From: Minisyncoccota bacterium
GTDB taxonomy: Bacteria; Patescibacteriota; Minisyncoccia; Phycocordibacterales; UBA6899
Reading direction: 5' to 3'
DNA: 49,351 nucleotides
Assembly (NCBI GenBank): GCA_035457505.1
Contig: DATIBL010000097.1
Location: 1 to 49,351, forward strand
The notes beneath the pieces were generated by a model, which made no database searches, had not been told where the DNA came from, and saw nothing but the letters and a program-made list of their open reading frames with translations. Shown one piece after another: positions 6,345-38,131 of this stretch (within the stretch, counting starts at the first letter, position 1; every line of letters begins with the position of its first letter). The position numbers were made by a program, and so were the translations under genes.

Positions 6345-9300
6345 ATGGTATTTTTTGGCTCCAAGACTTTGCTGATCGCTTCCCGTCGGTACCTTCTGTT
6401 GATTCCTCTGATCATCGCGGCCGGCCTCCTTGGCTTCATTCCAAGCGCTGCTGAGGCTGCCCCGTCGACTGTCGTGACCGGAGTTGTTGATGGATGGGCA
6501 CACAGCAAATCTCGACCAGTGCTGTATAACGGGCAGTATTTCTTTCTCGTCTATCATGCGAGTGGGGGAAATCTGTATTACAAGTCGAGTGCTGATGCCG
6601 TCACGTGGTCAGCCACCTCGACGCTCCTTTCGACTGGAAATACCCCATATGAGTTCGATATGTTCCAGGTCGATGATGGAAAATTTGATCTGGTCACCTC
6701 GTTCACCGCGGCAGCAAATCCGCAGGTTACTACCTGCGCGATCAGTGGTGCCGCCATCACCTGTGGAGCGACAACGACAGTGAGCTCGGCTGTTGCAAAT
6801 CTCCCAGTCAGTATTACCCGCACTCCGTATACTGGCCGCGTGTGGGTCGCGGTGCGCAATGCTGCCGAGCTTGAAGTGTGGTCGGCGAACACTGCTGGAG
6901 ATGTGACATCCAGTATGACGTTTACTGATGAGGTTGCGGGCGGGGATGCAAATCTGGTCGGCGAGGTAACGATGGTGCCCTATTCTTCTGGCGTTGCAGC
7001 TGATCGCGTACTCGTCATCTATGCGCGCGATCCGGGAGGGACGGGTTCAGATGGCATCTACTCGCGCGATATTACCGATGGCGGCGGAGCCGGAACGCGT
7101 CTTGATGTGCAGCTAGCGAGCACACAGCAGAATACCAACCTTTTCGGGAATGCGATCCGCATCTCTGATGCGCATTTCAAATTTATTTTCCGAAGCGTAG
7201 GGAGCGCGTTGCCCGCAGGGGGGACAGGAGTATTTGCGCATGCATGGAACGGCACATCATGGTTTGGGACGACGAATATCGACTCAGAAATTGATGAGGA
7301 CAATCTGGTCTTTGCATACAATTCTCATAATGATTCCATCTACGCGCTTGCGAATGACACCGCCGGAACAGCTTCGATCGAGCGATGGTATCGCCCCTCC
7401 GGAGCCGCGTGGGGCACCGAGGTTTCGGCCGACGGCGCCGAATCGACAGCCCGGAGTCTTCCGGTCACTCAGGCTCAGGAGCCGGCGATGGCGACAAGCA
7501 CGATCCTCCGCGAGCAGTTCATTCTTCCGTGGGCGTATCGCGTGGCGAACGGGAGTACGTTTGACCTCAAGGTCGATGGGCTTGCACTTGGCGGCACGAC
7601 GACACTCCGCGCGTTTAATTTTTTGAATGACAACGGAGCAACTGTCGATGCGTATACTGCGCGCGCAGGATTGGCGACCTCGACGATTGCAACCAATGTG
7701 AAGAAGGGGGAGCGCATGATTGTGCGATTTCAGGTCGACAACAAAAGCATTGCGACGTCGACAAAGATGTATCGTCTGCAGTGGGAGAACGCAACTGATG
7801 CGGCCGGAGTTTGGAACGACCTCGGGACGACAACGCAGATTCGCTGGGCATATTCAGAGAAAGGTGCTCCGCTTGCGCGACAGGGCTTTACTCCTCTCCC
7901 GACAAATCAGAGTGGAACATGTAATTCCGGATCGACATACGTCGCTGGGAGATTTGTTAGTGGTACTGGCACAAGTGCCCCGATCTCGCTTCCGCCGGGA
8001 AAATGTACGGAGCTTGCGTTTGCGATCGAGACTTCAGGGGCGACTCTCGGGAAGACATATCGGTATCGCCTTGTAAATGGTTTGACAGGACTTGCATTCG
8101 ACGCGACGATCCTCGGTGGAACTTACTCGACCTATGCGTCTTCAACGATCGAAACAGTGCAAAGCATTCGCTACTCCAAGGAGGCACGCGGCGGCACGAG
8201 CGATATGGCAATGGATGCTGCGAATGGGAACAATAACGGCTGGTATATCGACGCAGCGATGGGATCGGATGGTTTTCCTGTTTTCTCATACAACGATTCT
8301 GCTGCTTCTTCGCTCAAGTTCATTAAATGCGGGGATATTGCATGTTCGTCGTCAACGGTCCGCACGTTGATCAAGCCCGCGAGTCAGAATGCTTTGGCGA
8401 TCGGCACCGATGGAAATCCGATTCTCGCCTATTATTCTGAAATCGCAAATGATCTGCACTTTATGAAGTGTGGCGATCTTTCCTGCTCCGCGACGACAAG
8501 CGTGTCACTTCACGCGAGCGCGAATGTCGTCGGCCAGGCGCCATCAATGGCGATCGGCACTGATGGAAATCCTGTGATTTCCTATTACGATTCGACAGAT
8601 AAGGATCTTGAATTTGTGAAATGTCATGACACGTCGTGTACAACTTCGACTCAGCGGACGCTCGATGATGGCGGTGATACATCGGTGGCAATCGGTGCGG
8701 AAAGTTCAATAACTGTCGGTCCAGATGGCTATCCCGTCATCGTTTATGAAGGGAGGGATATCAACACTCTTCTTCTTATTAAGTGTACCGATGCTGCCTG
8801 TTCAACAACTTCCACTTCGACGACAGTAATTGAAACATCGGGAGGCAGCTCCCCCTCGGCTGCAATGAATGCGGATGGATTTCTTTCGGTTGCGTACTAT
8901 ACTTTGTCTGGAGGCGATCTCAAATTCATCAAATGTGCGAATACGCTCTGCACCTCCAGGACGACGCGGACGCTTGCTACCTCATATGAAGTTTCGTGGC
9001 CACCGGTGCTTCTGATTGGTGCAGATGGAAACCCGTTGATCGTGTTTCGTGATTCAACAACGGGGGCTAACAAGATCCTTGCGCTCAAGTGTCATGATTC
9101 AACCTGCGGGACGTATTCGATTAGCGTAGTGAAAAGCACTGGGGCGAGTGCCTCACTTGGAGTATATCGCTCTGCCGTGCTGGCTCCAGATGGTAATCCT
9201 GTCATTCTGACGCAGATCGATCCTTCTGGAGCGAACGATAAGACACCGCACTTCATTCGTTGTTCAACGATTGATTGCGCGCCTGTCGCGTCGTCTACGG

Positions 9301-10430
9301 CGAATCTCCTTGGAACCAATGCAGATCTTCGATATTTTCTTGATGATGCAGGATATACGAATGTTGCCAGCTCCGACAATACGTATGATTCAATCACGGC
9401 AGCGACCTCGACCCGCCTTGCCTATGTGTTCAAGAAGACCCATACGAACAACACTGATCAGATCGACGTGTCGTGGGAGGGGCAGGTTTCGATCGCGACG
9501 ACAACCTATTTGAAGATCTACAACTATTCATCGGGAGCATGGGAAACGCTTGCTTCAAACACGCCTTCGCCTGCAACAGACTTCACGCTCTCGGGAGTTC
9601 AGTCATCCAATCTCTCAAATTACTACGATGGTGGAAACACCGTTTCCCTTCGTCTGGAAACGGGCACTACGACAAAGGTCACGACCCTCAAGACCGACCA
9701 GATCACAATCACTCTCTCGGCTCCCGCTGCGGTTCCCACGATCGTGCACTATCGTTGGCGCGAAGATAATGGGACAGAGACTGCGGCCTCGTACGCGGCG
9801 GCCGAAGACACCGCGCTTGCTCCACCGTATCAGGTCTACCTTGGTGATCGCCGGCGGCTTCGCGTGGCTGTGTCAAATGGCGGCGGAGTTCCGGCATCGA
9901 ATATCACCTATCGACTCGAATATGCCTCTTCGTCGTGCTCAAGCTGGATTGCTGTTCCTTCGTTCAATACGCAGACAACGCAGGAGTGGGTGACCGATCT
10001 CTCGCAATGGCTGCCCGACGGTGTAGCGACGACGCACTCGTCCGGGATGACCGTTCCTCCTGGAAAATCATTTGTTGCTGGGCAGGCGAAATTGCATACC
10101 AACCAAACAAGCGCGCACACGCTTTCGGCAAGCGAGTACACAGAACTCGAGTATGCACTTCGGTCGACATCCTTCGCGCAGTCAAATCTCCTCTATTGCT
10201 TTCGTGTCACCAATGCTGGTTCTGCGTCAGGGTTCTCGTATCAGGTCCGTCCAGAACTGACGCTGAATCCAAATTTCAGACCTCAAACAGGGGGTGCGGG
10301 TACGGAAGCAATCGGGGCCGGCTCACAAAGAAATAACGGTCAAAATAGTGGCGGCTCTGGGACTGAGAGCTCGGGCTCTGGTTCCACCACTACCGGTGGC
10401 GGAGCCGGGGGCGGTGGAGATTCTGGTTAG
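6345..10430 (+). CDS. giant secreted or surface repeat protein (1361 aa from the ATG at 6345)
   Basis: MVFFGSKTLLIASRRYLLLIPLIIAAGLLGFIPSAAEA|AP is a typical signal peptide. The rest is Thr/Ser/Gly/Ala-rich. It has an N-terminal beta-propeller-like region, seven Cys-pair repeats, two copies of a ~150-aa module, and a Gly/Ser-rich C-terminal tail. The tracked ORF start at 6228 is rejected because the promoter lies inside that extension. Confidence 0.8.
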   Translation: MVFFGSKTLLIASRRYLLLIPLIIAAGLLGFIPSAAEAAPSTVVTGVVDGWAHSKSRPVLYNGQYFFLVYHASGGNLYYKSSADAVTWSATSTLLSTGNTPYEFDMFQVDDGKFDLVTSFTAAANPQVTTCAISGAAITCGATTTVSSAVANLPVSITRTPYTGRVWVAVRNAAELEVWSANTAGDVTSSMTFTDEVAGGDANLVGEVTMVPYSSGVAADRVLVIYARDPGGTGSDGIYSRDITDGGGAGTRLDVQLASTQQNTNLFGNAIRISDAHFKFIFRSVGSALPAGGTGVFAHAWNGTSWFGTTNIDSEIDEDNLVFAYNSHNDSIYALANDTAGTASIERWYRPSGAAWGTEVSADGAESTARSLPVTQAQEPAMATSTILREQFILPWAYRVANGSTFDLKVDGLALGGTTTLRAFNFLNDNGATVDAYTARAGLATSTIATNVKKGERMIVRFQVDNKSIATSTKMYRLQWENATDAAGVWNDLGTTTQIRWAYSEKGAPLARQGFTPLPTNQSGTCNSGSTYVAGRFVSGTGTSAPISLPPGKCTELAFAIETSGATLGKTYRYRLVNGLTGLAFDATILGGTYSTYASSTIETVQSIRYSKEARGGTSDMAMDAANGNNNGWYIDAAMGSDGFPVFSYNDSAASSLKFIKCGDIACSSSTVRTLIKPASQNALAIGTDGNPILAYYSEIANDLHFMKCGDLSCSATTSVSLHASANVVGQAPSMAIGTDGNPVISYYDSTDKDLEFVKCHDTSCTTSTQRTLDDGGDTSVAIGAESSITVGPDGYPVIVYEGRDINTLLLIKCTDAACSTTSTSTTVIETSGGSSPSAAMNADGFLSVAYYTLSGGDLKFIKCANTLCTSRTTRTLATSYEVSWPPVLLIGADGNPLIVFRDSTTGANKILALKCHDSTCGTYSISVVKSTGASASLGVYRSAVLAPDGNPVILTQIDPSGANDKTPHFIRCSTIDCAPVASSTANLLGTNADLRYFLDDAGYTNVASSDNTYDSITAATSTRLAYVFKKTHTNNTDQIDVSWEGQVSIATTTYLKIYNYSSGAWETLASNTPSPATDFTLSGVQSSNLSNYYDGGNTVSLRLETGTTTKVTTLKTDQITITLSAPAAVPTIVHYRWREDNGTETAASYAAAEDTALAPPYQVYLGDRRRLRVAVSNGGGVPASNITYRLEYASSSCSSWIAVPSFNTQTTQEWVTDLSQWLPDGVATTHSSGMTVPPGKSFVAGQAKLHTNQTSAHTLSASEYTELEYALRSTSFAQSNLLYCFRVTNAGSASGFSYQVRPELTLNPNFRPQTGGAGTEAIGAGSQRNNGQNSGGSGTESSGSGSTTTGGGAGGGGDSG
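8259..9299 (+). repeat. seven tandem ~45-55-aa coding repeats, consensus (I/V)G.DG.P.I.Y......L.F.KC.D..C
   Basis: The repeat cores are MGSDGFPVFSY..LKFIKCGDIACSS, IGTDGNPILAYY..LHFMKCGDLSCSA, IGTDGNPVISYY..LEFVKCHDTSCTT, VGPDGYPVIVYE..LLLIKCTDAACST, MNADGFLSVAYY..LKFIKCANTLCTS, IGADGNPLIVFR..ILALKCHDSTCGT and LAPDGNPVILTQ..PHFIRCSTIDCAP. Confidence 0.85.
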
Positions 10431-28782: not shown

Positions 28783-28783
28783 T

Positions 28784-28909
28784 CCAGACCTCGAGAATCG
28801 GCATATTCCTTGGTCTTCCGTCGGAAAATCCGGTCAAAGTATAGGAATACATTTCCCGGATATTTCCTCCGTCCAGACCGGCGGACTATGCGCGATTTTC
28901 GAGGTCTGG
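28784..28909. repeat. 126-bp imperfect palindrome immediately after the pilB stop
   Basis: CCAGACCTCGAGAATCG (28784-28800) pairs with CGATTTTCGAGGTCTGG (28893-28909), a 17-bp arm with one mismatch. An inner arm is GGAAAATCCGG/CCGGATATTTCC. Confidence 0.7.
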
Positions 28910-28964
28910 CTGAACTATGATTGGCAATCATGGTCTTCCCGACATTTTGTCAGTCCAAGCCATC

Positions 28965-29022
28965 GCACCACACAGGGCACTTCCAAATTTCAGTACTCGA
29001 AGACTCGATGAAATTTTAGGTC
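28965..29022 (+). repeat. 58-bp repeat unit, copy A (inverted partner at 37213-37270)
   Basis: GCACCACACAGGGCACTTCCAAATTTCAGTACTCGAAGACTCGATGAAATTTTAGGTC matches the reverse complement of 37213-37270 at 55 of 58 positions. It contains the inner palindrome AAATTTCA...TGAAATTT and a direct ACTCGA duplication. Confidence 0.9.
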
Positions 29023-29130
29023 GGACTGCATCCGAACCAAGCGCTCGCGAGAGTGATGTTTCCTTCCACCAGACCAGCAGGCGTCCGGCAATTCCAGAAG
29101 GCTGGTCGTTTCTGCCTGCATTATAAAACC

Positions 29131-29159
29131 TTGACAACAGCGCAAATCATGTGCATAAT
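29131..29159 (+). promoter_or_regulatory. sigma70-type promoter
   Basis: TTGACA (29131-29136), a 17-nt spacer, then CATAAT (29154-29159). It would give a leader of about 155 nt before the ATG at 29322. Confidence 0.6.
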
Positions 29160-29321
29160 TTGCACCAACGTTCTTTGAGTGAACTCGGGGTTGGTCACAG
29201 CGAAAAGCGGCTTCCCTATGGTAGGCCCTCTTTCGCTGTGACCAATGAGGTCATGGTTCCTCCTCGGATGAGAGGAGCGCTTCGTGAGCAACGAAGTGTC
29301 GTGTACATGTGGAGTATCGTC

Positions 29322-29987
29322 ATGAGCAATGACAATCAGATTGAGCGGTTATGGAAGCTTCAGGCTACCGTGAATAAGTTGATTCTCGATGGAAAGCGAG
29401 ATCCGCGCGAGGTGTCCGACATCCTTCAAGGAATTTTGGAGAGTCGCCCGCAACAGCGTTGGCGTGAAGAAGACGGCGTCATCTACTTCTCTGTCGGGCC
29501 GACTGACGTTACGACAGGTGAGGGGTGGATCACGAGGCTCACTGGTAAAGGCATTCCCGTCGGGGATAGTGCTAGAGAACTGCTCCGTTCGTCTGCCTTC
29601 AAGCCTACGAGTGGAGTGGTCACCAACGTCGCAGTCGTAAACGATTCGGCCGACGTCTCCGACATCAAGCGTATTTTCTCCGAAGACAGCGTTCACGCCA
29701 GGAGGAGGATGACACGTGAATTTGCAAGAAACTTCCGAACTTCCGATGGCCGCAGGCTTCTCGTGCCGAACATCGAACTCGCCTGTCTTATCCTTGAGAG
29801 GCTCGCGGAAAAGGAGTTTGGATTGATGTGTCCGTGGCAGATCGCTGTCACTCATGAGCCCTTCAAAAACCTGAGATTGCTTGCGGACAGTATTGGCGGC
29901 GGACGGCTCGACGCATACACTGACGACGCACTCTCCAATTGGTGGCACGGCAATGTTGGTTTTGCCTTCGAGGTTGCGGAGGTCTGA
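29322..29987 (+). CDS. hypothetical protein (221 aa)
   Basis: The ATG at 29322 is preceded by GGAG, and the gene has its own terminator at 30029-30060. By eye its GC content is lower than the neighbours. No family recognised. The tracked start at 29151 lies inside the promoter and is rejected. Confidence 0.55.
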   Translation: MSNDNQIERLWKLQATVNKLILDGKRDPREVSDILQGILESRPQQRWREEDGVIYFSVGPTDVTTGEGWITRLTGKGIPVGDSARELLRSSAFKPTSGVVTNVAVVNDSADVSDIKRIFSEDSVHARRRMTREFARNFRTSDGRRLLVPNIELACLILERLAEKEFGLMCPWQIAVTHEPFKNLRLLADSIGGGRLDAYTDDALSNWWHGNVGFAFEVAEV

Positions 29988-30028
29988 TCTTTTCTCCCGT
30001 TATCGAGACTCCAGACCTTTCATTTTCC

Positions 30029-30060
30029 GTCCCGCTCCATTTATTGGAGCGGGACTTTTG
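30029..30060 (+). terminator. rho-independent terminator
   Basis: GTCCCGCTCCA pairs with TGGAGCGGGAC (11-bp stem, 5-nt loop), followed by TTTTGT. Confidence 0.8.
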
Positions 30061-30138
30061 TATTGGTCCTGCGTGAGAGAAATATTGCGCAAATGGGTGG
30101 GGTGGGTAGACTCTGGGCAGAGATATGGAGTCGGTGCC

Positions 30139-30462
30139 ATGGAAAAGTTGATCCGCGATCGGATCACAGAGAAGGCGCTTGCGCGCGGCGAGGTGATGCG
30201 CGTGCGCAAAGCGGAGAGCGACTGGGAATTCCGCGCGATGCTGACGAAGAAGCTTGTCGAAGAAGCGAAAGAATGCCATGCGGCGCGCTCGCGCCGTGAG
30301 CGGCGGAAAGAACTTGCGGATGTCCTCGCGGTTCTCACTGAGCTGCTTCGTCTTGAGAAAGTCTCCTGGGAAGAATTGCACGTTATCGCAGAAGCAAAGC
30401 GCGCGGAGAATGGCGGTTTCGCGAAGCGCCTGATTTGGCTCGATGCGCCAGAAAATCCCTGA
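30139..30462 (+). CDS. MazG-like nucleoside triphosphate pyrophosphohydrolase (all-alpha NTP-PPase family)
   Basis: 107 aa. MEKLIRDRITEKA...KKLVEEAKE...ELADVLAVLTELL...KRAENGGFAKRLIW matches the KLVRD.IP...EE..E...E.aDvlev...K...RGgF pattern of house-cleaning NTP pyrophosphatases. Confidence 0.7.
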   Translation: MEKLIRDRITEKALARGEVMRVRKAESDWEFRAMLTKKLVEEAKECHAARSRRERRKELADVLAVLTELLRLEKVSWEELHVIAEAKRAENGGFAKRLIWLDAPENP

Positions 30463-30483
30463 TGTGTGAATAGCGCAGAAAGA

Positions 30484-30513
30484 ACAACCCCCGAGATCGG
30501 GGGTTGTGTTGTT
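30484..30513 (+). terminator. hairpin terminator
   Basis: ACAACCCCC (30484-30492) pairs with GGGGGTTGT (30499-30507) around a 6-nt loop, followed by GTTGTT. Confidence 0.6.
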
Positions 30514-30547
30514 CGAGTGCAGAGAGTTCCTATATAATGAATGCAGT

Positions 30548-31765
30548 ATGCCACGCTATGCGTATAAAGCGACACTCGTCGCAACCGGTGCAGAGATTGA
30601 AGGACTCGAAGAGGCGGCCGATAAGTTTGAGCTCGCCAAGAAGATCAAGGCCGACGGCAAGCTGCTGCTCACCGCGACAGAGATCTCTACTGAGACCTGG
30701 AACATGGATCGTATCAACGCGATGCTGTCCAAGGTGCAGCTTCGCGAGAAGATTGTGTTTGCGCGCAATCTGGCGACGATGATCGAGGCCGGTCTCGCGC
30801 TTTCCCGCGGTCTCCAGATCTTCCTGAAGCAGACCCAGAATCCCAAGTTCAAGCAAGTTCTCCAGGCGCTCGTCGAGGATATCAACAAAGGCACGCCGCT
30901 CTCTGATGGCATGGCGAAGTTCGACGACGTCTTTCCTGCAGTCTTTGTATCAATGGTCCGCGCAGGTGAGGAGTCCGGCGGACTCGTCGATGCGCTGAAT
31001 ACCGTCGGTGGGCAAATGGAAAAGTCCTACTACCTCAAAAAGAAAGTGAAGGGCGCGATGATGTATCCGGCGATCGTCTTTTGCGTCATGATTGGCGTCG
31101 GCGTCCTTATGCTGATCTACGTCGTCCCGGGTCTCAAGGCGACGTTCGAGGAAGTCGGCGTTGCACTTCCATTTTTGACCCAGCTGATTATCGACATCAG
31201 CGATTTCATCCAGGAAGAGGCAGTGCTTGCCATCGGTGTTGTTATTGCTGGCATTGTGGGATTCATCGGCTACAAGAGAACAGAGTTCGGCGGACGATCG
31301 CTCGATTACATCGCAATCCACGTGCCGGTATTCGGCAAGATCGTTCGCGAGTTCAACTCGGCGATGGCGACCCGCACGCTCTCGTCGCTCATTTCCGCCG
31401 GCGTCGACATCGTGCATGCGATCGAGATCACGCAGGATGTGCTCGGGAACGTGTACTACAAAGAGACGCTCGAGGAGGCGAAGGTCAATATTCAGAAGGG
31501 TATTCCGCTTTCGCAGATCTTCATCCAGCACGATGATATCTATCCGGTCATGGTGGGCGACATGATGGAGGTCGGCGAGGAGACTGGCCGTCTTTCCGAC
31601 ATGCTCCTCAAGATCGCGGTTTTCTACGAAGAGGAGGTGGATTCGGCAACGAGCGATATGTCGAAGCTGATTGAGCCGATCCTTATGGTCATGATCGCGG
31701 CGTTCGTCGGTGTGTTTGCGGTCGCGATGATCACGCCGATGTATACGATCATGACGAATATCTAG
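30548..31765 (+). CDS. pilC: type IV pilus inner-membrane platform protein PilC (GspF family)
   Basis: 405 aa from the ATG at 30548 (MPRYAYKA...). It has two T2SF repeats (FARNLATMIEAGLALSRGL and ATRTLSSLISAGVDIVHAI), three TM segments and the C-terminal EPILMVMIAAFVG motif. Confidence 0.92.
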   Translation: MPRYAYKATLVATGAEIEGLEEAADKFELAKKIKADGKLLLTATEISTETWNMDRINAMLSKVQLREKIVFARNLATMIEAGLALSRGLQIFLKQTQNPKFKQVLQALVEDINKGTPLSDGMAKFDDVFPAVFVSMVRAGEESGGLVDALNTVGGQMEKSYYLKKKVKGAMMYPAIVFCVMIGVGVLMLIYVVPGLKATFEEVGVALPFLTQLIIDISDFIQEEAVLAIGVVIAGIVGFIGYKRTEFGGRSLDYIAIHVPVFGKIVREFNSAMATRTLSSLISAGVDIVHAIEITQDVLGNVYYKETLEEAKVNIQKGIPLSQIFIQHDDIYPVMVGDMMEVGEETGRLSDMLLKIAVFYEEEVDSATSDMSKLIEPILMVMIAAFVGVFAVAMITPMYTIMTNI

Positions 31766-31767
31766 GT

Positions 31768-32250
31768 ATGGTCTCAATGAGACATCCTTCTCGCTCGCGC
31801 CAGTCGGGCTTTACGCTGATCGAGGTGACGGCAGCGATCGTGATCATGATCTTCGCGATCACTGTCACGATCACCGCGTTTTCAAATTTCCGGGCGCGCA
31901 AAACAATGGACGCAGCGGTCGAGCAGGTTCTCGCAGTTTTTTCTCAGGCGCATCTCGATACGATCTCCTCGAAGGATGATCGGGCGTACGGGGTCCATCT
32001 CGATTCAGATAAGGCTGTGTATTTTGTAGCTCCGACTTATGATTCAGCTACCACCACGAACAAGATCTATATGATCCATCCGGCGATCGAGATCACGAAC
32101 GTTTCGCTCGCGGGGAGCACAACAGAGATCGTGTTCCAGCGTTTCACGGGCCAAACCAGCCAGACGGGCACATTCGAGCTTCGCGTGAAGACCAATACGA
32201 GTATCTCTACTGTCGTGACTGTTCAGGGGACCGGCTCGATCTCGCTCTAG
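31768..32250 (+). CDS. minor pseudopilin (GspH/FimT-like)
   Basis: The prepilin motif is SRQSG|FTLIEVTAAIVIMIFAI. The gene is 160 aa and begins 2 nt after pilC. Confidence 0.75.
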   Translation: MVSMRHPSRSRQSGFTLIEVTAAIVIMIFAITVTITAFSNFRARKTMDAAVEQVLAVFSQAHLDTISSKDDRAYGVHLDSDKAVYFVAPTYDSATTTNKIYMIHPAIEITNVSLAGSTTEIVFQRFTGQTSQTGTFELRVKTNTSISTVVTVQGTGSISL

Positions 32251-32308
32251 GGGCGAGTTTCTCTCCGCGCGCGTTGCGTCAGTACCGGAGCGACGATACA
32301 ATAGACAC

Positions 32309-32818
32309 ATGTACATTCGAACATCGGGTTCGAACGCCCGTCGCGTCCGTAGCCGCGGGTTCACGCTGATCGAGATCTTGCTCGGCGCATCGATGCTTGC
32401 GCTCTTTATCGTGTCGATCGCACTCTATTACCGCAAGGCGCTCGAGGTGAGCCAGGAAACGACTCACCACATTCAGGCCGGATTTCTTCTTGAAGAAGGG
32501 ATCGAGGCGGTCAAATCGATGCGCGACGATGGATGGACCACCTACATTGCGACACTCAATCCCGGAACCTCCTACTACCTCTACTGGAACGGCTCCAAGT
32601 GGCGAGCGACGACGACCCCGCTCCAGGTTGAGAACACCTTCTGGCGGAGTGTCATACTCTCCAGCGTCAATCGAGATGTGAACGACGATATCGTTACGAC
32701 CGGCGGATCGGCAGACGCGGGAACTCGCAAGGTTCGCGTCGATGTGACCTGGAACAAAAAGACGGCGTCATCCACGGAGTCGATCGAGACCTATATCACG
32801 AATCTTTTCAACAACTAG
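32309..32818 (+). CDS. minor pseudopilin (PilV/GspI-like)
   Basis: The prepilin motif is RSRG|FTLIEILLGASMLALFIVSI. 169 aa. Confidence 0.7.
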   Translation: MYIRTSGSNARRVRSRGFTLIEILLGASMLALFIVSIALYYRKALEVSQETTHHIQAGFLLEEGIEAVKSMRDDGWTTYIATLNPGTSYYLYWNGSKWRATTTPLQVENTFWRSVILSSVNRDVNDDIVTTGGSADAGTRKVRVDVTWNKKTASSTESIETYITNLFNN

Positions 32819-32819
32819 T

Positions 32820-33344
32820 ATGCGGCCCTTCACGAAAAAGCAGCGCGGGTTCTCGCTCATGGAGGTCGTCATCTATACGGCGCTCTTCGTGCTCATTTCG
32901 GGCGCGACCGTCGATGCGATCATTATGACGACGCGCGCGTTTTCGAATCTTCGCATCTCGCGCGATATCAATGACTCTGCGATCAAGGTCATGGAGCGCC
33001 TCACGCGAGACGTGAAGAATGCAACATCGATCGATCTGGCGCAGAGCACATTCTCAGCCACACCGGGCCGGCTGACACTGAATACGCTTTCTGCGACCGG
33101 AACGCCCGTCATCATTGAGTATTATGTTGCGACGACGACCGGGCAGCTCCGGCTCAAAGAGAACGGCGTCGACAAGGGGTCGCTCATGTCGGCGAAGACC
33201 CAGGTCGATGCATTGGTCTTCTATCTCATTTCGACGGCTCAGACGAGCGGAGTCAAAACAGAGCTGCACTTGCGTTCGTCGCGCGGTGCCGTGCAGGATC
33301 AAGACCACTTCTATAACACGAGCATGCTTCGCGGGACCTATTAG
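32820..33344 (+). CDS. minor pseudopilin (PilW/GspJ-like)
   Basis: The prepilin motif is KKQRG|FSLMEVVIYTALFVLISG. The gene is 174 aa and begins 1 nt after the previous stop. Confidence 0.7.
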   Translation: MRPFTKKQRGFSLMEVVIYTALFVLISGATVDAIIMTTRAFSNLRISRDINDSAIKVMERLTRDVKNATSIDLAQSTFSATPGRLTLNTLSATGTPVIIEYYVATTTGQLRLKENGVDKGSLMSAKTQVDALVFYLISTAQTSGVKTELHLRSSRGAVQDQDHFYNTSMLRGTY

Positions 33345-33364
33345 TCCGGCGGGTCCATTCTTTT

Positions 33365-35179
33365 ATGGCCGAGCGTTTCATTGCACATCTTCGAGCAAAC
33401 CGCGGCGCGGCGCTCTTGATCTCGATCATGTTTTTCTTTGGGATCTCGATCGCAATCTTGATGAGCGGAACCGGATCAGTGATGACCGAGCTTGCGTCAT
33501 ACCGCACGCTTTCGAAGTCGAAGTTCTCCTATGTGGCGAGCGAAGCGGCTGTGGAAGATGCGTTGTATCGCGTCGCAAACAATCGACAGATTTCTGCGAA
33601 CGAGATCTATGTGCTGAACGGCGCAACCTCGACGCTCGCGATGACACTGCTTTCTGGGACGGAGCGGGAGTTTTATACGATTGGCGATGCATCTGGGCGC
33701 ATCCGCAAGGTGTATATGCGTGCGACGAATACCGGAGGTGGGAGTATAAATCTGAATTATGCCGTGCAGGTGGGTGAGGGAGGGGTGGAGGTGGAGAATA
33801 ATGCGAGCGTTACCGGGAACATTCACTCAGGAGGACCCTTAAACGGCGAGAGTAACACGGTCGTCAACGGAAATGTGACTATTTCTTCGGGGATTACCGA
33901 GGGCTATGCGAGTTCGACGGTCTGCACGGGAGGAGGATCGGGCGACGTCGAGATGGGAAGGACAAATCCGTATATTGATCACGCGCAGCAATTCATTCCG
34001 ACGACTTCGGATACGCTCGCCAAGGTCTCACTTTATATTAAACGCACGAGCAACCCATCGAGCCCGACGATCCGCATTGTGACAGACAATGCAGGGAGTC
34101 CGTCCACGACGCAGGTCGGCTCGCAAGCGTTCAATTATTCTTTGGCCGATACCAACTATGGCTGGGTCGACGTCGTTTTTGACACTCCGCCCGCCCTCAC
34201 GGCTGGAACGCCGTATTGGATCGTCTTTGATGCCGGGCAGCACGGGAGTAAATACTGGCATTGGTGTAAGAACACCGCTGATGCATATTCGGACGGTTCT
34301 CCGAAATACAAGCAGGACTGGTCGAGCGGCTCTGGTTCGTGGACGGCGATCGTGGGCGATCTGACATTCAAAACCTTTTTTGGGAATGTGATCGCTGCGA
34401 GCTTGATCCAAGATATGACCGTCAATGGGATCGCGAAGGCAGATACTATTACCGATTCGACGATCAATGGCGATGCCTACTATCAGACGATCACGAATAC
34501 GACGATCACGGGAACTGCATATCCAGGCTCTCCCACTCCTCCTGAAGTGGAACCCCCGGTTTCATCGACAACGATCCAGATGTGGATCGACGAGGCGACG
34601 CTCGGAGGGACGCTGACCGGTGATTTTTCACTCATCAATGGTGCGACCTCAACGCTCGGTCCGCGCAAGCTTGATGGCGATATCTTGGTCGACAACAACG
34701 CGATCCTGACGGTCAGCGGGACGCTTTATGTGACCGGAACGGTGGATTTCTCAAACAACGCGATTGTGCAATGTCATCCGACATACAGCGTGAATAGTTG
34801 CGTGATCGTTGCGGATCAATCGATCGATGTGATGAACAATGTGACGCTCCAGGGGTCCGGCGTCTCTGGGAGTTATTTGATCCTTCTGACGAATTCGAAC
34901 TGTGATAGCACGACGGGAAGCGAGTGTTCGTCGTCAAATACTGCGGTTCGGATTTCCAACAATGCATCCGGCGGCGCGGTCGTCCTTGCGCCGAATGGAG
35001 CGATTCAGATGGATAATAACGCGTCGATGCCTGCCGTGGTGGGGTACAAAGTGGAGCTTGAGAATAACGCGTTCATCAACTACAACGCTGATCTTGCGAA
35101 TATCAACGTGCTCTCGAGTGCCACGTCCACACCTGGCACCGTCGGAGCCTGGCAAGTGAATGCTTGGAGAGAGATCTAG
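33365..35179 (+). CDS. large PilX-N-terminal-domain pilus-associated protein (604 aa), paralog 1
   Basis: The N-terminus RANRGAALLISIMFFFGISIAILMSG resembles the PilX N-terminal anchor. Periodic N-N-(A/V) and G-(N/T)-(V/I) beta-helix-like segments follow. It lies in the pilus operon. Confidence 0.7.
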   Translation: MAERFIAHLRANRGAALLISIMFFFGISIAILMSGTGSVMTELASYRTLSKSKFSYVASEAAVEDALYRVANNRQISANEIYVLNGATSTLAMTLLSGTEREFYTIGDASGRIRKVYMRATNTGGGSINLNYAVQVGEGGVEVENNASVTGNIHSGGPLNGESNTVVNGNVTISSGITEGYASSTVCTGGGSGDVEMGRTNPYIDHAQQFIPTTSDTLAKVSLYIKRTSNPSSPTIRIVTDNAGSPSTTQVGSQAFNYSLADTNYGWVDVVFDTPPALTAGTPYWIVFDAGQHGSKYWHWCKNTADAYSDGSPKYKQDWSSGSGSWTAIVGDLTFKTFFGNVIAASLIQDMTVNGIAKADTITDSTINGDAYYQTITNTTITGTAYPGSPTPPEVEPPVSSTTIQMWIDEATLGGTLTGDFSLINGATSTLGPRKLDGDILVDNNAILTVSGTLYVTGTVDFSNNAIVQCHPTYSVNSCVIVADQSIDVMNNVTLQGSGVSGSYLILLTNSNCDSTTGSECSSSNTAVRISNNASGGAVVLAPNGAIQMDNNASMPAVVGYKVELENNAFINYNADLANINVLSSATSTPGTVGAWQVNAWREI

Positions 35180-35248
35180 TTCCTGGTGCTTTTCCTGAGC
35201 CCGTATTTTGGCTTTCAGGGCCGCTAAGTGTGCTACTATATTGAGTAT

Positions 35249-37105
35249 ATGCGTCGCTCGAGTCCTTTGTGTTCGATCTCTCGGAGCGGAGCCCTGCACG
35301 CGCGGCATGCAGAGCGCGGCGGAGCGCTGCTCCTCTCGATCATGTTCTTTTTCGGGATCTCGATCGCGATCTTGCTCTCCGCGACGACTTCCGTCATCAC
35401 GGAGCTGCGTACCTATCGCGCGCTTGCGGACTCTAAGAGCGCCTTCGTGATCGCAGAGGCGGGGATCGAAGATGGTCTGTATCGCGCCGAGCAGAATATG
35501 GATATCTCGGCGACGGAAATTTATGCGTTGAACGGGGCTACTGGAACGCTGACCTATGTAGATCTCTCTGATACCGAGCAGTTCTATCAGACGGTCGGAA
35601 TTGCGAATGGCCGCGTGCGCAAACTCACTGCGCTTTCGACCAAGAATGTCGATGGAGCGCTTTACTATGGAGCACAGGTCGGAGAGGGGGGGATCATTAT
35701 GCGCAATAATTCGCTGATCGATGGCACCGGACTCATCAAAGGCCGCGTGCACTCAAACGGCCAGATCGACGGGGAGCCTGCCGTGACGATCACCGGCGAC
35801 GTGACGATCGCATCCGGAATCATCGCCGATACGACATCCGCATCTCTTGTCTGCGCTGCCGACGTGGAAGTTGGCCGGTCGAATCCCACTGTCGATCATG
35901 CACAGAGTTTTATTGCATCGACCACGGCGGCGCTCCCGAAGGTCTCGCTGTATATCAAACGCGTTGGAAATCCGAATAATGCCAATCTGCGCATTGCCGA
36001 AGACAATGGAAGCGGAAGTCCGAAGACAACAAGCATTGCCGTGCAATCCCTTCCGTATGCGTCTGCTGACACGAACTATGGCTGGGTGGAGGTCGAATTC
36101 ACGTCGCCGCCAACCCTGACCGGAGGTCAGACGTACTGGATCATCCTCGACGCCGATCAACACAGTGGAAAATACTGGTACTGGTGTCGGGATACAGCGA
36201 ATGCCTATGCGAATGGTTCTCCGAAATATAAGCAGGACTGGTCGAGCGGCTCTGGTTCATGGACGGCGATCGCGGGAGATCTCGATTTCCAGGTCTATTA
36301 TGGCGGAGGAAAGTCGCAGCTCGACGAAGTGATCGTTTCTGGAACTGCCAAAGCCGATTCCATCATGAATTCGCAGATCGGCGTCGACGCATACTATCAA
36401 ACGATCACCAGCACGACCGTGACCGGCGCCTCCTATCCCGGGTCGCCCACGCCGCCCCCGGTTCCACTCCCATACTCCACGACACTGATCGGGCAATGGA
36501 AGTCCGATGCGGAAGCAGGGGGGACGATCACGGGAACCTGCGGTTCGACCGGAGTCGCGGGGTGCAACAACGCGACGACGACGATGGGTCCGCGCAAGAT
36601 AGATGGCGATCTCGTCCTCAACAACAACGAAGAATGGACGATCAGTGGAACGCTTTGGGTCACTGGCAATATCGATCTCTCGAACAATTCCGTTATCCGC
36701 TGTCACGCGAGCTACGCAGCATCGAGCTGTATTATCATCGCGGATGGATGGATCGAGGTCGGGAACAATGTTATTCTCTCGGGATCGGGAACGGCGGGCA
36801 GTTACGTGATGCTGCTCACGACGATTGCGGGGTGCATCGGTCCTGGATCGCCGAATCTTGATTGCGCAAATAACGAAAGTGCGATCCGTGTTTCGAACAA
36901 TGGCCAGGGTGCGCTCTTCTATTCGACTGCGGGGCAGATCTTTCTCTCAAACAACGTGATTGTGACTGCGATCGTCGGATATAAGCTCGAATTGTCCAAT
37001 CTGGCGCAGATCATTTATGACGATCTTGTGCAGCAGATTCATTTTGCGCCGACGGCAACGTCCTCTGACGGAGCATGGAGTGTTGATGAATGGCGCGAAG
37101 AATAG
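35249..37105 (+). CDS. large PilX-N-terminal-domain pilus-associated protein (618 aa), paralog 2
   Basis: AERGGALLLSIMFFFGISIAILLSA has the same architecture as 33365-35179. The two share PKYKQDWSSGSGSWTAI and AYPGSPTPP / SYPGSPTPP blocks. Confidence 0.7.
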   Translation: MRRSSPLCSISRSGALHARHAERGGALLLSIMFFFGISIAILLSATTSVITELRTYRALADSKSAFVIAEAGIEDGLYRAEQNMDISATEIYALNGATGTLTYVDLSDTEQFYQTVGIANGRVRKLTALSTKNVDGALYYGAQVGEGGIIMRNNSLIDGTGLIKGRVHSNGQIDGEPAVTITGDVTIASGIIADTTSASLVCAADVEVGRSNPTVDHAQSFIASTTAALPKVSLYIKRVGNPNNANLRIAEDNGSGSPKTTSIAVQSLPYASADTNYGWVEVEFTSPPTLTGGQTYWIILDADQHSGKYWYWCRDTANAYANGSPKYKQDWSSGSGSWTAIAGDLDFQVYYGGGKSQLDEVIVSGTAKADSIMNSQIGVDAYYQTITSTTVTGASYPGSPTPPPVPLPYSTTLIGQWKSDAEAGGTITGTCGSTGVAGCNNATTTMGPRKIDGDLVLNNNEEWTISGTLWVTGNIDLSNNSVIRCHASYAASSCIIIADGWIEVGNNVILSGSGTAGSYVMLLTTIAGCIGPGSPNLDCANNESAIRVSNNGQGALFYSTAGQIFLSNNVIVTAIVGYKLELSNLAQIIYDDLVQQIHFAPTATSSDGAWSVDEWREE

Positions 37106-37292
37106 TTTAGGACCTCCGCAAATAGCGAATTTCTTCGTTGCGGAGCCTCGCCGCCTCGTCAGCATATGCAGCTATGGCTTCTTCGGACGGCGAGGCTCCG
37201 CGCCTCGAACTTGACCTAAAATTTCATCGAGTCTACGAGTACTGAAATTTGGAAATGCCCTTTGTGGTGCATCTATTTGTGGAGGTCCTAAA
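37106..37292. repeat. 187-bp nested palindromic (MITE/REP-like) element immediately after the stop codon
   Basis: The terminal inverted repeats are TTTAGGACCTCCGCAAATAG (37106-37125) and CTATTTGTGGAGGTCCTAAA (37273-37292), matching at 19 of 20 positions. An inner perfect 14-bp hairpin is GCGGAGCCTCGCCG (37140-37153) with CGGCGAGGCTCCGC (37188-37201). The element contains copy B of the 58-bp unit. Confidence 0.75.
37213..37270 (-). repeat. 58-bp repeat unit, copy B (inverted relative to 28965-29022)
   Basis: The reverse complement reads GCACCACAAAGGGCATTTCCAAATTTCAGTACTCGTAGACTCGATGAAATTTTAGGTC, with 3 mismatches to copy A. Confidence 0.9.
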
Positions 37293-37369: not shown

Positions 37370-38131
37370 ATGAAGATCATCGTCGGGAATTGGAAAATGT
37401 ATCCGTCCCAATCGGCCGAAGCCGCTGCGATCGCGCAGGCGTCGCGCCGAGCGGTGCGGGGTTTGAAGCGCACACGCGTCGTCGTGTGTCCGCCGTTCCT
37501 CTATACAGATCGGATCGCGAAACTCGCTGGCGAGCGTTTTGCGGTCGGCGCGCAGGATTGCTTTTGGGAAGATGTCGGTGCACGGACCGGGGAAGTGTCG
37601 GCACACATGCTTGCGAAGATCGGTGCGACGCATGTGATCATCGGACACTCCGAACGGCGTGCGCTCGGCGAGACGGATCAGGATGTGGCGAAGAAGGCCG
37701 CCGCCGCGATCAAGGAAAAACTGACCGTAATCGTCTGTGTTGGAGAGCGCGATCGCGATGAGGCGGGGTCATATTTTGCGACTGTCGGCGCCCAGGTCGA
37801 CGCTGCATTCGCCGGGCTCTCTGCCTCTGCTGCATCTCGGATTATTGTCGCGTATGAACCGATCTGGGCGATCGGCTCGCAGGCGCTGCGCGCAGCGACG
37901 CCCGAGGATCTCCATGAGATGGTCGTCTTGATCCGCAAACACCTCACGCGCATCTTCGGAAAGACGCCCGGTTTCCGCATCCCGATCCTTTACGGCGGCT
38001 CTGTCGATACGGAGAATGCTGCCGGATATCTCGCGAAGGGGCTTGCCGACGGACTCCTGATCGGACGCATCAGCCTCGATAAGGAGAAATTCGCCGCGAT
38101 CGTTCGCATGGCCGATACGCTGCGCGCATAA
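37370..38131 (+). CDS. tpiA: triosephosphate isomerase
   Basis: 253 aa. It contains IVGNWKMY, IIGHSERR and AYEPIWAIGS (catalytic Glu), plus YGGSV. Confidence 0.95.
   Translation: MKIIVGNWKMYPSQSAEAAAIAQASRRAVRGLKRTRVVVCPPFLYTDRIAKLAGERFAVGAQDCFWEDVGARTGEVSAHMLAKIGATHVIIGHSERRALGETDQDVAKKAAAAIKEKLTVIVCVGERDRDEAGSYFATVGAQVDAAFAGLSASAASRIIVAYEPIWAIGSQALRAATPEDLHEMVVLIRKHLTRIFGKTPGFRIPILYGGSVDTENAAGYLAKGLADGLLIGRISLDKEKFAAIVRMADTLRA

What the first reader, a model, noticed from the sequence alone, without database searches (positions are those of the whole stretch)
28965..37270. 58-bp inverted repeats bracket the whole pilC / minor-pilin / PilX-like segment
A 58-bp unit at 28965-29022 reappears in reverse complement at 37213-37270, matching at 55 of 58 positions. 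I saw no other copy in the window.

The pair encloses about 8.2 kb. That span holds a promoter, the hypothetical plus MazG-like cassette, pilC, three pseudopilins and both large PilX-like genes. pilB lies just outside on the left and tpiA just outside on the right.

Long inverted repeats flanking a gene block are substrates for site-specific or homologous inversion. Inversion here would uncouple pilC and the pilins from pilB. Alternatively, the repeats could be two copies of a dispersed REP/MITE-like unit or of a shared operator. The unit has an inner palindrome AAATTTCA-N16-TGAAATTT with a direct ACTCGA repeat, which looks like a protein-binding site.
Basis: seen in the sequence. Interest (0 to 1): 0.6.

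Follow-up and report, generated by a model that had tools for sequence, protein, structure and literature searches.

The report
Tiny mobile hairpin repeat, two copies
The two inverted 58-base repeats around the pilus genes are real, but they are two copies of a tiny, apparently undescribed, non-coding hairpin element scattered through this group of ultra-small (CPR) bacteria, not the ends of a switch that flips the pilus operon.

Summary
Observation confirmed: 28965-29022 and 37213-37270 are a sharply bounded inverted pair (55/58), and there is no other copy in the window.

Inversion reading not supported. The enclosed pilC/pilin block is ancestral and lies in the same order and orientation across Paceibacteria. 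The genome has only a Xer-type tyrosine recombinase, on another contig, and no serine recombinase. The longest uninterrupted identity between the arms is 22 bp.

The unit belongs to a "box-hairpin-box" family: CACCAC-N2-6-GRGYAYTTC, then a 7-8-bp AT-rich stem that covaries freely, then TWGGTCG.
- Copies: 3 in this Ca. Lloydbacteria genome, 3-72 per genome in the sister genus.
- Spread: 31 of 301 genomes of the order; reversed-pattern control 0.
- No Rfam match, no hairpin-bearing copy on viral contigs, and no orientation bias towards genes.

Both window copies sit inside larger host repeats whose unit-less paralogues occur in the same genome. This gives precise filled/empty sites: a 57-58-nt insert with no terminal inverted repeats and no target duplication. 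Units also nest in each other, form tandem arrays and fuse to tRNA 3' ends. The mobiliser is unknown; a REP/RAYT link was tested and not met.

The parts
28965..29022 (+). Left copy of the box-hairpin-box unit (R1 match 28965-29026). It has a 5' box GCACCAC-ACA-GGGCACTTCC, stem AAATTTCA/TGAAATTT, loop GTACTCGAAGACTCGA and 3' box TAGGTCG.
   Evidence: the empty-site paralogues on C15 read GTCCAAGCCGTCG|GACTGCATCC
37213..37270 (-). Right copy of the unit (R1 match 37209-37270), read on the minus strand. It is nested inside host repeat E2.
   Evidence: C69 and C105 read GATG|AAATTCGAGG where the window reads GATG[57-nt unit]AAGTTCGAGG
37106..37292 (-). Host repeat E2, a 187-bp palindromic MITE-like element. 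Its terminal inverted repeats of about 20 bp are at 37106-37125 and 37273-37292, and it has an inner 14-bp GC hairpin. It starts 1 nt after the big2 stop codon and carries the right unit.
   Evidence: fold z = -8.5 and -7.7; three full copies in the genome; at least 9 further partial matches
28783..28912 (+). Host repeat E1, a palindromic repeat with arms CCAGACCTCGAGAAT / ATTTTCGAGGTCTGG. It starts 1 nt after the pilB stop codon.
   Evidence: at least 11 related copies on other contigs
28925..29040 (+). A second, partial E1 3' half (GGTCTTCCCGACATTTTGTCAGTCCAAGCCATCG ... GACTGCATCC), interrupted by the left unit.
   Evidence: alignment with E1 copies on C15, C90 and C45
26923..28782 (+). pilB (T2SSE ATPase), just outside the left arm.
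   Evidence: synteny
29131..29159 (+). Sigma-70-like promoter (TTGACA-17-CATAAT) for the inserted hypothetical/MazG-like cassette.
29151..30462 (+). Hypothetical ORF of 278 aa (no Pfam hit, not found in relatives) plus a MazG/PRA-PH-like ORF.
30506..33344 (+). pilC (T2SSF) and three N-methyl pilin genes.
   Evidence: syntenic in relatives
33365..37105 (+). Two tandem paralogous large ORFs (604 and 625 aa). Relatives have a single copy.
   Evidence: (D1, D8)
37370..38131 (+). tpiA, just outside the right arm.
   Evidence: (PF00121)

Best explanation
The two arms are two separately placed copies of a small (57-58 nt) non-coding, non-autonomous mobile DNA module. I call it a box-hairpin-box unit: (G)CACCAC-N2-6-GRGYAYTTC(C), then a 7-8-bp AT-rich stem with a 13-19-nt loop, then TWGGTCG(C).

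Shown:
- The unit is a dispersed multi-copy family in Ca. Lloydbacteria and in other families of the same order.
- Its hairpin is kept by compensatory change while the flanking boxes are kept in sequence.
- It lies in intergenic DNA in either orientation.
- It is found inserted, with exact boundaries, no terminal inverted repeats and no target duplication (at most 1 nt), into other repeats, into the loops of other units and at tRNA 3' ends.
- Here the left copy interrupts the tail of an E1 repeat in the pilB-pilC spacer, which is a recurrent landing zone for such elements in Lloydbacteria.
- The right copy sits inside an E2 palindromic repeat placed directly after the last pilus-operon gene.
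- The pilus block between them is ancestral.

Inferred:
- The inverted, bracketing arrangement is incidental.
- Movement probably goes through a folded single strand recognised by a trans-acting enzyme. HUH/Y1 transposase genes are abundant in these genomes, but no link to the unit was shown.
- Any effect on the pilus operon (transcript-end hairpins, rare RecA-mediated inversion) would be a side effect.
For: Family and spread:
- BLAST finds the 58-mer at 81-96% identity in 16 genomes of the sister genus.
- Model R1 finds 3 copies in this genome and 3-72 per genome in genus g2, none in g3 or g5.
- The box pattern hits 31 of 301 genomes and 24 of 191 genera of the order. The reversed-pattern control gives 0.
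- None of the 70 chance hits on viral contigs has a hairpin.

Hairpin:
- There are 33 distinct stems among 61 units, with 429 Watson-Crick pairs, 4 G-U and 3 A-C.
- All 7 stem pairs show double changes: 76 cells against 23 +/- 4 in shuffles (0 of 500), and 92% paired against 63%.
- The spacing between stem halves varies from 16 to about 75 to about 175 nt.

Mobility:
- Unit-less E2 paralogues on C69 and C105 read GATG|AAATTCGAGG. The window reads GATG[unit]AAGTTCGAGG.
- Unit-less E1 tails on C15 read GTCG|GACTGCATCC. The window reads ATCG[unit]GACTGCATCC.
- Units nest in the loops of other units.
- Tandem abutting arrays occur.
- tRNA-Ile and tRNA-Val genes have their ACCA supplied by the unit.

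Placement:
- Gene contexts are ++ 16, -- 13, +- 9 and -+ 4.
- Four of six units in 291 kb of Lloydbacteria pilB loci lie within 600 nt after pilB. They are of another subtype, in the opposite orientation, and in another host repeat.

Against a switch:
- Synteny and orientation are conserved in relatives that lack the repeats.
- The only recombinase is Xer-type, and there is no serine recombinase.
- An independent contig shows the same right junction.

There is no Rfam match at E <= 1.
Against: - No enzyme has been tied to the unit. It is not next to Y1 genes. This genome's Y1 gene is flanked by a different palindrome.
- Filled/empty evidence comes from paralogous host repeats, not from orthologous sites in sister strains. 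My one attempt at an orthologous empty site hit rearranged spacers.
- Orthologous copies are better conserved than their flanks (about 98% against about 77%, by eye). The boxes are conserved across families. Both facts could also mean a cellular function rather than pure selfishness.
- Two of only three copies in a 1.1-Mb genome lie 8.3 kb apart (rough chance about 0.045). That is mildly unusual, although the pilB flank is a hot spot.
- Reads could not be examined, so inversion is not excluded.
Confidence: 0.75

Rival explanations
1. The unit is a functional structured RNA or a transcript-level signal, for example a 3'-end stabiliser, a processing site or a tRNA-3'-end mimic. On this reading it has been spread or retained because cells use it, and the two copies mark the ends of pilus-operon transcripts.
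For: - Covariation of the stem is strong and the single-stranded boxes are conserved across many families.
- Orthologous copies are more conserved than their flanks.
- The 5' CACCA coincides with tRNA 3' ends.
- Units mostly lie next to at least one gene 3' end.
- Within the 58-mer subfamily the two single-side changes are U-G on the box-defined strand.
Against: - There is no orientation bias relative to flanking genes: 16 co-directional against 13 antisense.
- Across the family the stems are almost purely Watson-Crick, with G-U about as rare as A-C (4 against 3).
- Copy number swings from 0 to 72 among close relatives.
- Units nest inside each other and inside other repeats.
- The stem is AT-rich with no U-tract, so it is not an intrinsic terminator (one search lists none there).
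- There is no Rfam family.
Confidence: 0.15
2. The pair is a working inversion substrate. Site-specific or homologous recombination between the arms flips the 8.2-kb pilC/pilin block and uncouples it from pilB (phase variation).
For: - The geometry is right: inverted arms bracket a block that carries its own promoter.
- Two of three genomic copies flank this block.
- Inversion could not be tested with reads.
Against: - There is no invertase. The only recombinase is a housekeeping Xer-type enzyme on another contig, and there is no serine recombinase.
- The arms share at most 22 bp of uninterrupted identity.
- The same units occur singly at hundreds of unrelated sites.
- The assembled orientation equals the ancestral synteny.
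- An independent assembly shows the same right junction.
- The two arms sit in different host repeats, so they arrived independently.
Confidence: 0.04
3. The palindrome is a double-stranded DNA operator for a dimeric regulator that binds at both ends of the pilus operon, for example for looping.
For: The sequence is a perfect 8-bp inverted half-site pair, present at both operon borders.
Against: - Half-site spacing varies from 16 to about 175 nt.
- Half-site sequence is not conserved across the family, whereas the asymmetric flanking boxes are.
- Most copies lie next to unrelated genes.
Confidence: 0.02

Closest known systems
REP / REPIN elements mobilised by RAYT (TnpA-REP) Y1 transposases
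   Same: Both are short (21-65 nt) extragenic hairpins with a conserved single-stranded stretch 5' of the stem. Both are multi-copy, intergenic, isolated or clustered, and vary in copy number between relatives. Y1/HUH genes are present in 27 of 29 genomes of the family. REP features are taken from PMC6006769 and PMC3479197.
   Different: - The hairpin foot carries TTCC, not GT[AG]G.
- The units do not flank Y1 genes. This genome's Y1 gene has its own, different palindromes.
- Units are mostly singletons or direct tandems, not inverted doublets.
- There is a long 19-nt 5' box plus a 3' box.
- Insertions have exact boundaries inside other repeats.
IS200/IS605-family ends and their protein-less derivatives (peel-and-paste single-strand transposition)
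   Same: Both lack terminal inverted repeats and target-site duplication, are strand-asymmetric, and have a hairpin next to conserved guide-like sequence (family features from PMC6006769).
   Different: - The unit has one hairpin, not a left-end and a right-end hairpin.
- There is no clear conserved 4-5-nt target. Position -1 is G in only 32 of 61 units.
- No autonomous copy with tnpA or tnpB was found.
- Orientation is mixed within 2 kb on one replicon (G029).
Classical MITEs and nested palindromic elements (e.g. Rickettsia palindromic elements, Correia, ERIC)
   Same: Both are small non-coding repeats that pile up in intergenic DNA and nest within each other. The host repeats E1 and E2 do look like classical palindromic MITEs with inverted ends.
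   Different: The 58-mer itself has no inverted ends (CACCAC... against ...GGTCG) and makes no target duplication.
Invertible DNA switches (fimS/FimBE, Hin/Gin, shufflons)
   Same: Both have inverted repeats flanking a promoter-bearing segment next to pilus genes.
   Different: There is no dedicated recombinase, the arms belong to a dispersed repeat family, the segment is 8.2 kb of ancestral operon, and no second orientation has been observed.

Membership tests
REP/RAYT (REPtron) system | Short extragenic hairpin repeats in many intergenic copies | tested here: met
   3-72 copies per genome in genus g2 and 3 here; 52 of 59 contexts are intergenic
REP/RAYT (REPtron) system | Conserved GT[AG]G guide tetranucleotide at the 5' foot of the hairpin (PMC6006769, PMC3479197) | tested here: not met
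   The four bases before the stem are TTCC or CTTC in nearly all units. The nearest GTAC lies 6 nt upstream.
REP/RAYT (REPtron) system | The cognate Y1 (RAYT) gene is flanked by the same REPs | tested here: not met
   The own Y1 gene, C45:2983-3789, is flanked by CCTCTGTATACAGAGG palindromes instead. There are no true units in six Y1 loci of relatives. Unit contigs and Y1 contigs do not coincide in G020.
IS200/IS605-type single-strand transposable element (non-autonomous derivative) | No terminal inverted repeats and no target-site duplication | tested here: met
   The ends are CACCAC... and ...TAGGTC(G). Filled/empty comparisons in E2 (0 nt duplicated) and E1 (at most 1 nt ambiguous) are.
IS200/IS605-type single-strand transposable element (non-autonomous derivative) | Subterminal hairpins at both ends | tested here: not met
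   There is a single central hairpin.
IS200/IS605-type single-strand transposable element (non-autonomous derivative) | Insertion 3' of a fixed tetra- or pentanucleotide | tested here: inconclusive
   Position -1 is G in 32 of 61 units and -2 is T or C. The two resolved sites are GATG^ and ATCG^.
IS200/IS605-type single-strand transposable element (non-autonomous derivative) | Cleavage and joining by a Y1 HUH transposase | not testable with these tools
   Y1 genes are present in 27 of 29 family genomes, but there is no genetic linkage. This needs biochemistry.
TIR-type MITE | Terminal inverted repeats and a target-site duplication | tested here: not met
   The unit ends are not inverted repeats and there is no duplication. 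The host repeat E2 does have terminal inverted repeats of about 20 bp.
Site-specific invertible segment | A dedicated invertase (tyrosine or serine) encoded nearby or in the genome | tested here: not met
   PF00239: 0 hits. PF00589: one full hit on C49, which is Xer-type by NCBIfam. The genome is only 85% complete.
Site-specific invertible segment | Both orientations present in the population | not testable with these tools
One independent contig shows the same right junction. The metagenome junction scan gave only chance hits.
Any Rfam 15 RNA family | Match to a curated covariance model | tested here: not met
   The only match in the window at gathering score is a tRNA. There are no matches at E <= 1 in ten loci holding short and long forms and both window spacers.
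Intrinsic terminator | GC-rich stem followed by a U-tract | tested here: not met
   The stem is AAAUUUCA/UGAAAUUU with no trailing T-run, and the terminator scan does not list it.

The most novel reading that the evidence does not exclude
The box-hairpin-box unit is an undescribed class of miniature mobile element of CPR bacteria. It is 57 nt long, has no inverted ends and makes no target duplication. Its 5' end is a tRNA 3' end (C-ACCA), so it can complete tRNA genes. Neither REP/RAYT nor IS200/IS605 rules account for its movement. It would therefore point to a new trans-acting mobiliser, or to an RNA-level (tRNA-end-primed) copying route.
Probability: 0.3. Interest if true: 0.7.

Novelty: new variant of a known kind. 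Interest (0 to 1): 0.45.

Why it matters
For the finding as posed, the result is deflationary. Nothing indicates that this Lloydbacteria genome phase-varies its type IV pilus operon by inversion.

The underlying element is more interesting. Genomes of about 1 Mb, generally thought to be streamlined, carry up to 72 copies of a 57-nt hairpin module plus at least two larger host repeats, stacked inside one another. These occupy the spacers immediately after stop codons and after tRNA genes.

The family is absent from Rfam, and I found no description of it in the searchable literature. It has an unusually clean architecture (two conserved boxes around a free-to-vary stem) and exact insertion boundaries. 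That makes it a tractable substrate for finding the enzyme that moves it.

It also explains contig breaks and 'structured RNA-like' intergenic folds in CPR MAGs. Annotators should mask it before calling regulatory RNAs or invertible elements.

Tried and rejected
- **Independent assemblies by exact protein look-up.** Only tpiA gave contigs. One of them covers the right unit and shows the same arrangement.
- **Metagenome scan for the genome-specific left junction 19-mer.** It gave 16 hits, all chance matches with no unit following.
- **Orthologous empty site between G011 and G001.** Both flanks were found, but the spacers are rearranged and filled with other repeats, so there is no clean comparison. 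A similar attempt around L057 also failed.
- **Alternative 5' hairpin GAGUACU/AGUACUC proposed by RNAalifold.** Counting does not support it: 12 of 27 sequences are mismatched at one pair, and it is no better than shuffles.
- **Inner UCGA/UCGA helix of the 58-mer.** It is weak, with 5 uncompensated breaks at one pair.
- **Strand asymmetry (G-U against A-C) to decide RNA or DNA.** There are too few non-Watson-Crick pairs (4 against 3) to decide.
- **Idea that insertions target hairpin loops.** Folds of the empty sites are weak and not significant, so this is inconclusive.
- **REP/RAYT link.** Tested and not met.
- **Phage origin.** No genuine copies on IMG/VR contigs.
- **Copy-number correlation with Y1 genes.** None is evident: g3 and g5 have Y1 genes but no units.
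- **Specific association with pilus genes.** Two other units lie next to pilB or pilC paralogues, and the pilB 3' flank is a hot spot. Most units, however, lie next to unrelated genes, so I read this as a permissive landing zone rather than a functional link.
Full report
**1. Observation**

The inverted pair is real. Arms 28965-29022 and 37213-37270 match at 55 of 58 positions. Similarity ends abruptly at both borders. The inner palindrome AAATTTCA-N16-TGAAATTT occurs only at these two sites, with none expected by chance. A covariance model run without filters finds no third copy in the window.

The genes are as described:
- nusA (-) and pilB lie to the left.
- Inside the pair are a promoter, a 278-aa ORF without Pfam hits, a weak MazG-like ORF, pilC, three N-methyl pilins and two large paralogous ORFs.
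- tpiA lies to the right.

**2. Organism and synteny**

Titles of the nearest pilB loci place the window in Candidatus Lloydbacteria (Paceibacteria, CPR). The assembly is 1.10 Mb in 129 contigs and about 85% complete.

The order nusA(-)-pilB-pilC-three pilins-large ORF-tpiA-next gene is conserved, in the same orientation, across dozens of Paceibacteria. None of those operons is bracketed by the unit. The block is therefore ancestral and assembled in its ancestral orientation. The repeats are lineage-specific additions.

**3. A dispersed family**

By BLAST this genome has only the two copies. The 58-mer recurs at 81-96% identity in 16 genomes of the sister genus.

Some hits were split. These turned out to be 'long forms' in which a second hairpin module sits in the loop of the first, and one copy has a further nested insert.

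Comparing copies showed a modular plan:
- a conserved 5' box, (G)CACCAC-N2-6-GRGYAYTTC(C);
- a 7-8-bp AT-rich stem whose sequence differs freely between subfamilies, with a 13-19-nt loop;
- a conserved 3' box, TWGGTCG(C).

A third member with a different stem lies on contig C25 of this genome.

A pattern for the two boxes hits 31 of 301 genomes and 24 of 191 genera of the order, with up to 20 hits per genome. The reversed-pattern control gives zero. All 70 hits of the same pattern in 2.9 million viral contigs lack a hairpin, so they are chance matches.

A covariance model of 38 diverse units (R1) gives 3 copies here, 3-72 per genome in genus g2 and none in g3 or g5.

No Rfam family matches the window or ten representative loci, even at E <= 1.

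**4. Structure**

- Among 61 distinct units there are 33 different stems, with 429 Watson-Crick pairs, 4 G-U and 3 A-C.
- On the diverse alignment all seven stem pairs show double compensatory changes: 76 cells against 23 +/- 4 in shuffles (0 of 500), 92% paired against 63%, and slid controls at 27-70%.
- The spacing between stem halves ranges from 16 to about 175 nt. That rules out a duplex operator and shows that the hairpin itself is what is maintained.
- An alternative 5' hairpin predicted by RNAalifold is not supported.
- G-U and A-C exceptions are too few to say which strand folds.

**5. Placement**

Of 59 unit contexts, 16 are co-directional with both neighbouring genes, 13 are antisense to both, 9 lie between convergent genes and 4 between divergent genes. 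The lack of orientation bias argues against a leader or a strictly 3'-UTR RNA element.

Units are enriched near tRNA genes: 14 of about 55 loci have one within 300 nt. In two loci the unit's first five bases are the last acceptor base plus ACCA of a tRNA on the same strand. Units also occur as abutting tandem arrays.

**6. Mobility: filled and empty sites in this genome**

The right spacer folds very strongly (z about -8). This is because it is a 187-bp palindromic repeat, which I call E2, with inverted ends of about 20 bp.
- E2 has two further full copies, on C69 and C105. Both read ...GATG|AAATTCGAGG...
- The window copy reads ...GATG[CACCAC...TAGGTC]AAGTTCGAGG....

The left unit interrupts the tail of another repeat family, E1, which has at least 11 copies.
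- Unit-less tails on C15 read ...GTCCAAGCCGTCG|GACTGCATCC...
- The window reads ...GTCCAAGCCATCG[unit]GACTGCATCC....

The same 57-58-nt module has therefore entered two different host repeats with exact boundaries, no inverted ends and no target duplication (at most 1 nt). Together with units nested in loops of other units, tandem arrays and the 0-72 swing in copy number, this makes a mobile, non-autonomous DNA module the best reading.

In the sister genus the E2+unit composite is common with identical junctions. The right arm therefore probably arrived as a composite. The left junction is so far unique to this genome.

**7. Why here?**

Both host repeats begin one base after a stop codon (pilB TAA, big2 TAG).

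In 291 kb of Lloydbacteria pilB loci, four of six R1 hits lie within 600 nt after pilB. These are of another hairpin subtype, in the opposite orientation, and nested in a third host palindrome. The pilB-pilC spacer is thus a recurrent landing zone, hit independently.

That weakens the mild oddity that two of three copies in this genome lie 8.3 kb apart (rough chance 0.045).

**8. Inversion**

- The genome encodes one full tyrosine recombinase. It is on contig C49 and is Xer-type by NCBIfam. There is no serine recombinase.
- The arms share at most 22 bp of uninterrupted identity.
- An independent Logan contig from another run (99.4% identical) covers the right unit and its inner flank in the same arrangement.
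Rare inversion therefore cannot be excluded, but nothing supports it.

**9. Mobiliser**

A hairpin next to conserved single-stranded boxes, with no inverted ends and no target duplication, is the substrate logic of HUH/Y1 enzymes such as IS200/IS605 TnpA and RAYT (PMC6006769, PMC3479197). Y1 genes occur in 27 of 29 genomes of the family.

The membership tests nevertheless fail:
- The foot of the hairpin carries TTCC, not GT[AG]G.
- There is one hairpin, not two.
- Units do not flank Y1 genes.
- This genome's Y1 gene scores only 41 bits against the REP_Tyr_transpos model (cut-off 80). It is flanked by its own perfect 40-44-nt palindromes instead.

'Works like a REP or IS200-type single-strand element' is therefore an inference, which I put at about 0.35 within the main explanation. 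It is not a classification.

**10. Earlier notes of this scan**

These were used as leads only.
- A follow-up on another CPR genome (e1-785434) reached the same kind of reading, including a link to tRNA ends. I re-derived this independently here.
- A first-reader note on 37106-37292 (e1-3304079) described the E2 composite. I confirmed it as a repeat family with unit-less paralogues.

**11. Verdict**

The element family itself is, as far as Rfam 15 and the searchable literature show, undescribed. It is a new variant of the REP/MITE kind of miniature mobile DNA.

Noticed in passing
own genome contig C45:2913-3829 and C91:1819-1858 (not in the window): This genome's single Y1/HUH transposase-like gene (C45:2983-3789; HFH and YIHLNP motifs) is flanked on both sides by perfect 40-44-nt palindromes with core CCTCTGTATACAGAGG. 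A third copy lies on C91. This is a REPtron-like arrangement unrelated to the 58-mer.
   Followed up: partly
window 28783-28912, plus C15, C77, C90, C39, C45, C25, C98, C116, C96, C88: Repeat family E1 has a core of about 105 nt and at least 11 copies in a 1.1-Mb genome. The window copy begins one base after the pilB stop codon. The third box-hairpin-box unit of this genome (C25:6558-6614) lies about 50 nt from an E1 copy, the same arrangement as left of the pilus block.
   Followed up: partly
window 37106-37292; C69:~9274-9533; C105:~9094-9353: Repeat family E2 is a palindromic element with inverted ends of about 20 bp and a variable inner GC hairpin. It has three full copies and at least 9 partial matches. 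The window copy begins one base after the stop codon of the last pilus-operon gene.
   Followed up: partly
L067:11770-12400 and L058:11720-11960 (Lloydbacteria pilB loci): Downstream of pilB the last ~25 nt of the gene (…GAGGTCTACCGAGTCGT.AG.GA.T.A) recur two or three times. Each repeat follows a palindromic element, as if the elements inserted into the gene's 3' end and brought a replacement end and stop codon.
   Followed up: no
L145:1428-1557 and L159:28-156: tRNA-Ile(GAU) and tRNA-Val genes are directly fused to a unit on the same strand. The unit's CACCA supplies the last acceptor base, the discriminator A and CCA. In L159 a second unit follows in tandem.
   Followed up: partly
G029:C1:418655-418817 and 338543-338760; G273:C10:8350-8455: There are arrays of two or three units of alternating hairpin subtypes, abutting head-to-tail with 3-40 nt between them.
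   Followed up: no
window 33365-37105: The two large 'PilX-like' ORFs are tandem paralogues, with DNA repeats at 73-79% identity and 1.9-kb spacing. Relatives have a single copy at this position.
   Followed up: partly
window 29151-30462: The 278-aa ORF has no Pfam hit and no tblastn match in any of 80 relatives' pilB loci, while a MazG-like ORF recurs between pilB and pilC in several Lloydbacteria. A strong terminator-like hairpin (30029-30055, 11 bp) lies inside the long TTG-started reading frame of the MazG-like ORF, so its true start is probably further downstream.
   Followed up: no
L247 (G001:C5) and L007 (G011:C5) spacers: A further short repeat, ...CCTAAAACTTYCAYTTTTGGGATGCAATTCGG..., occurs four times in one 250-nt spacer. 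It shares the GATG·AAATTCG core that is the unit's insertion site in E2.
   Followed up: no
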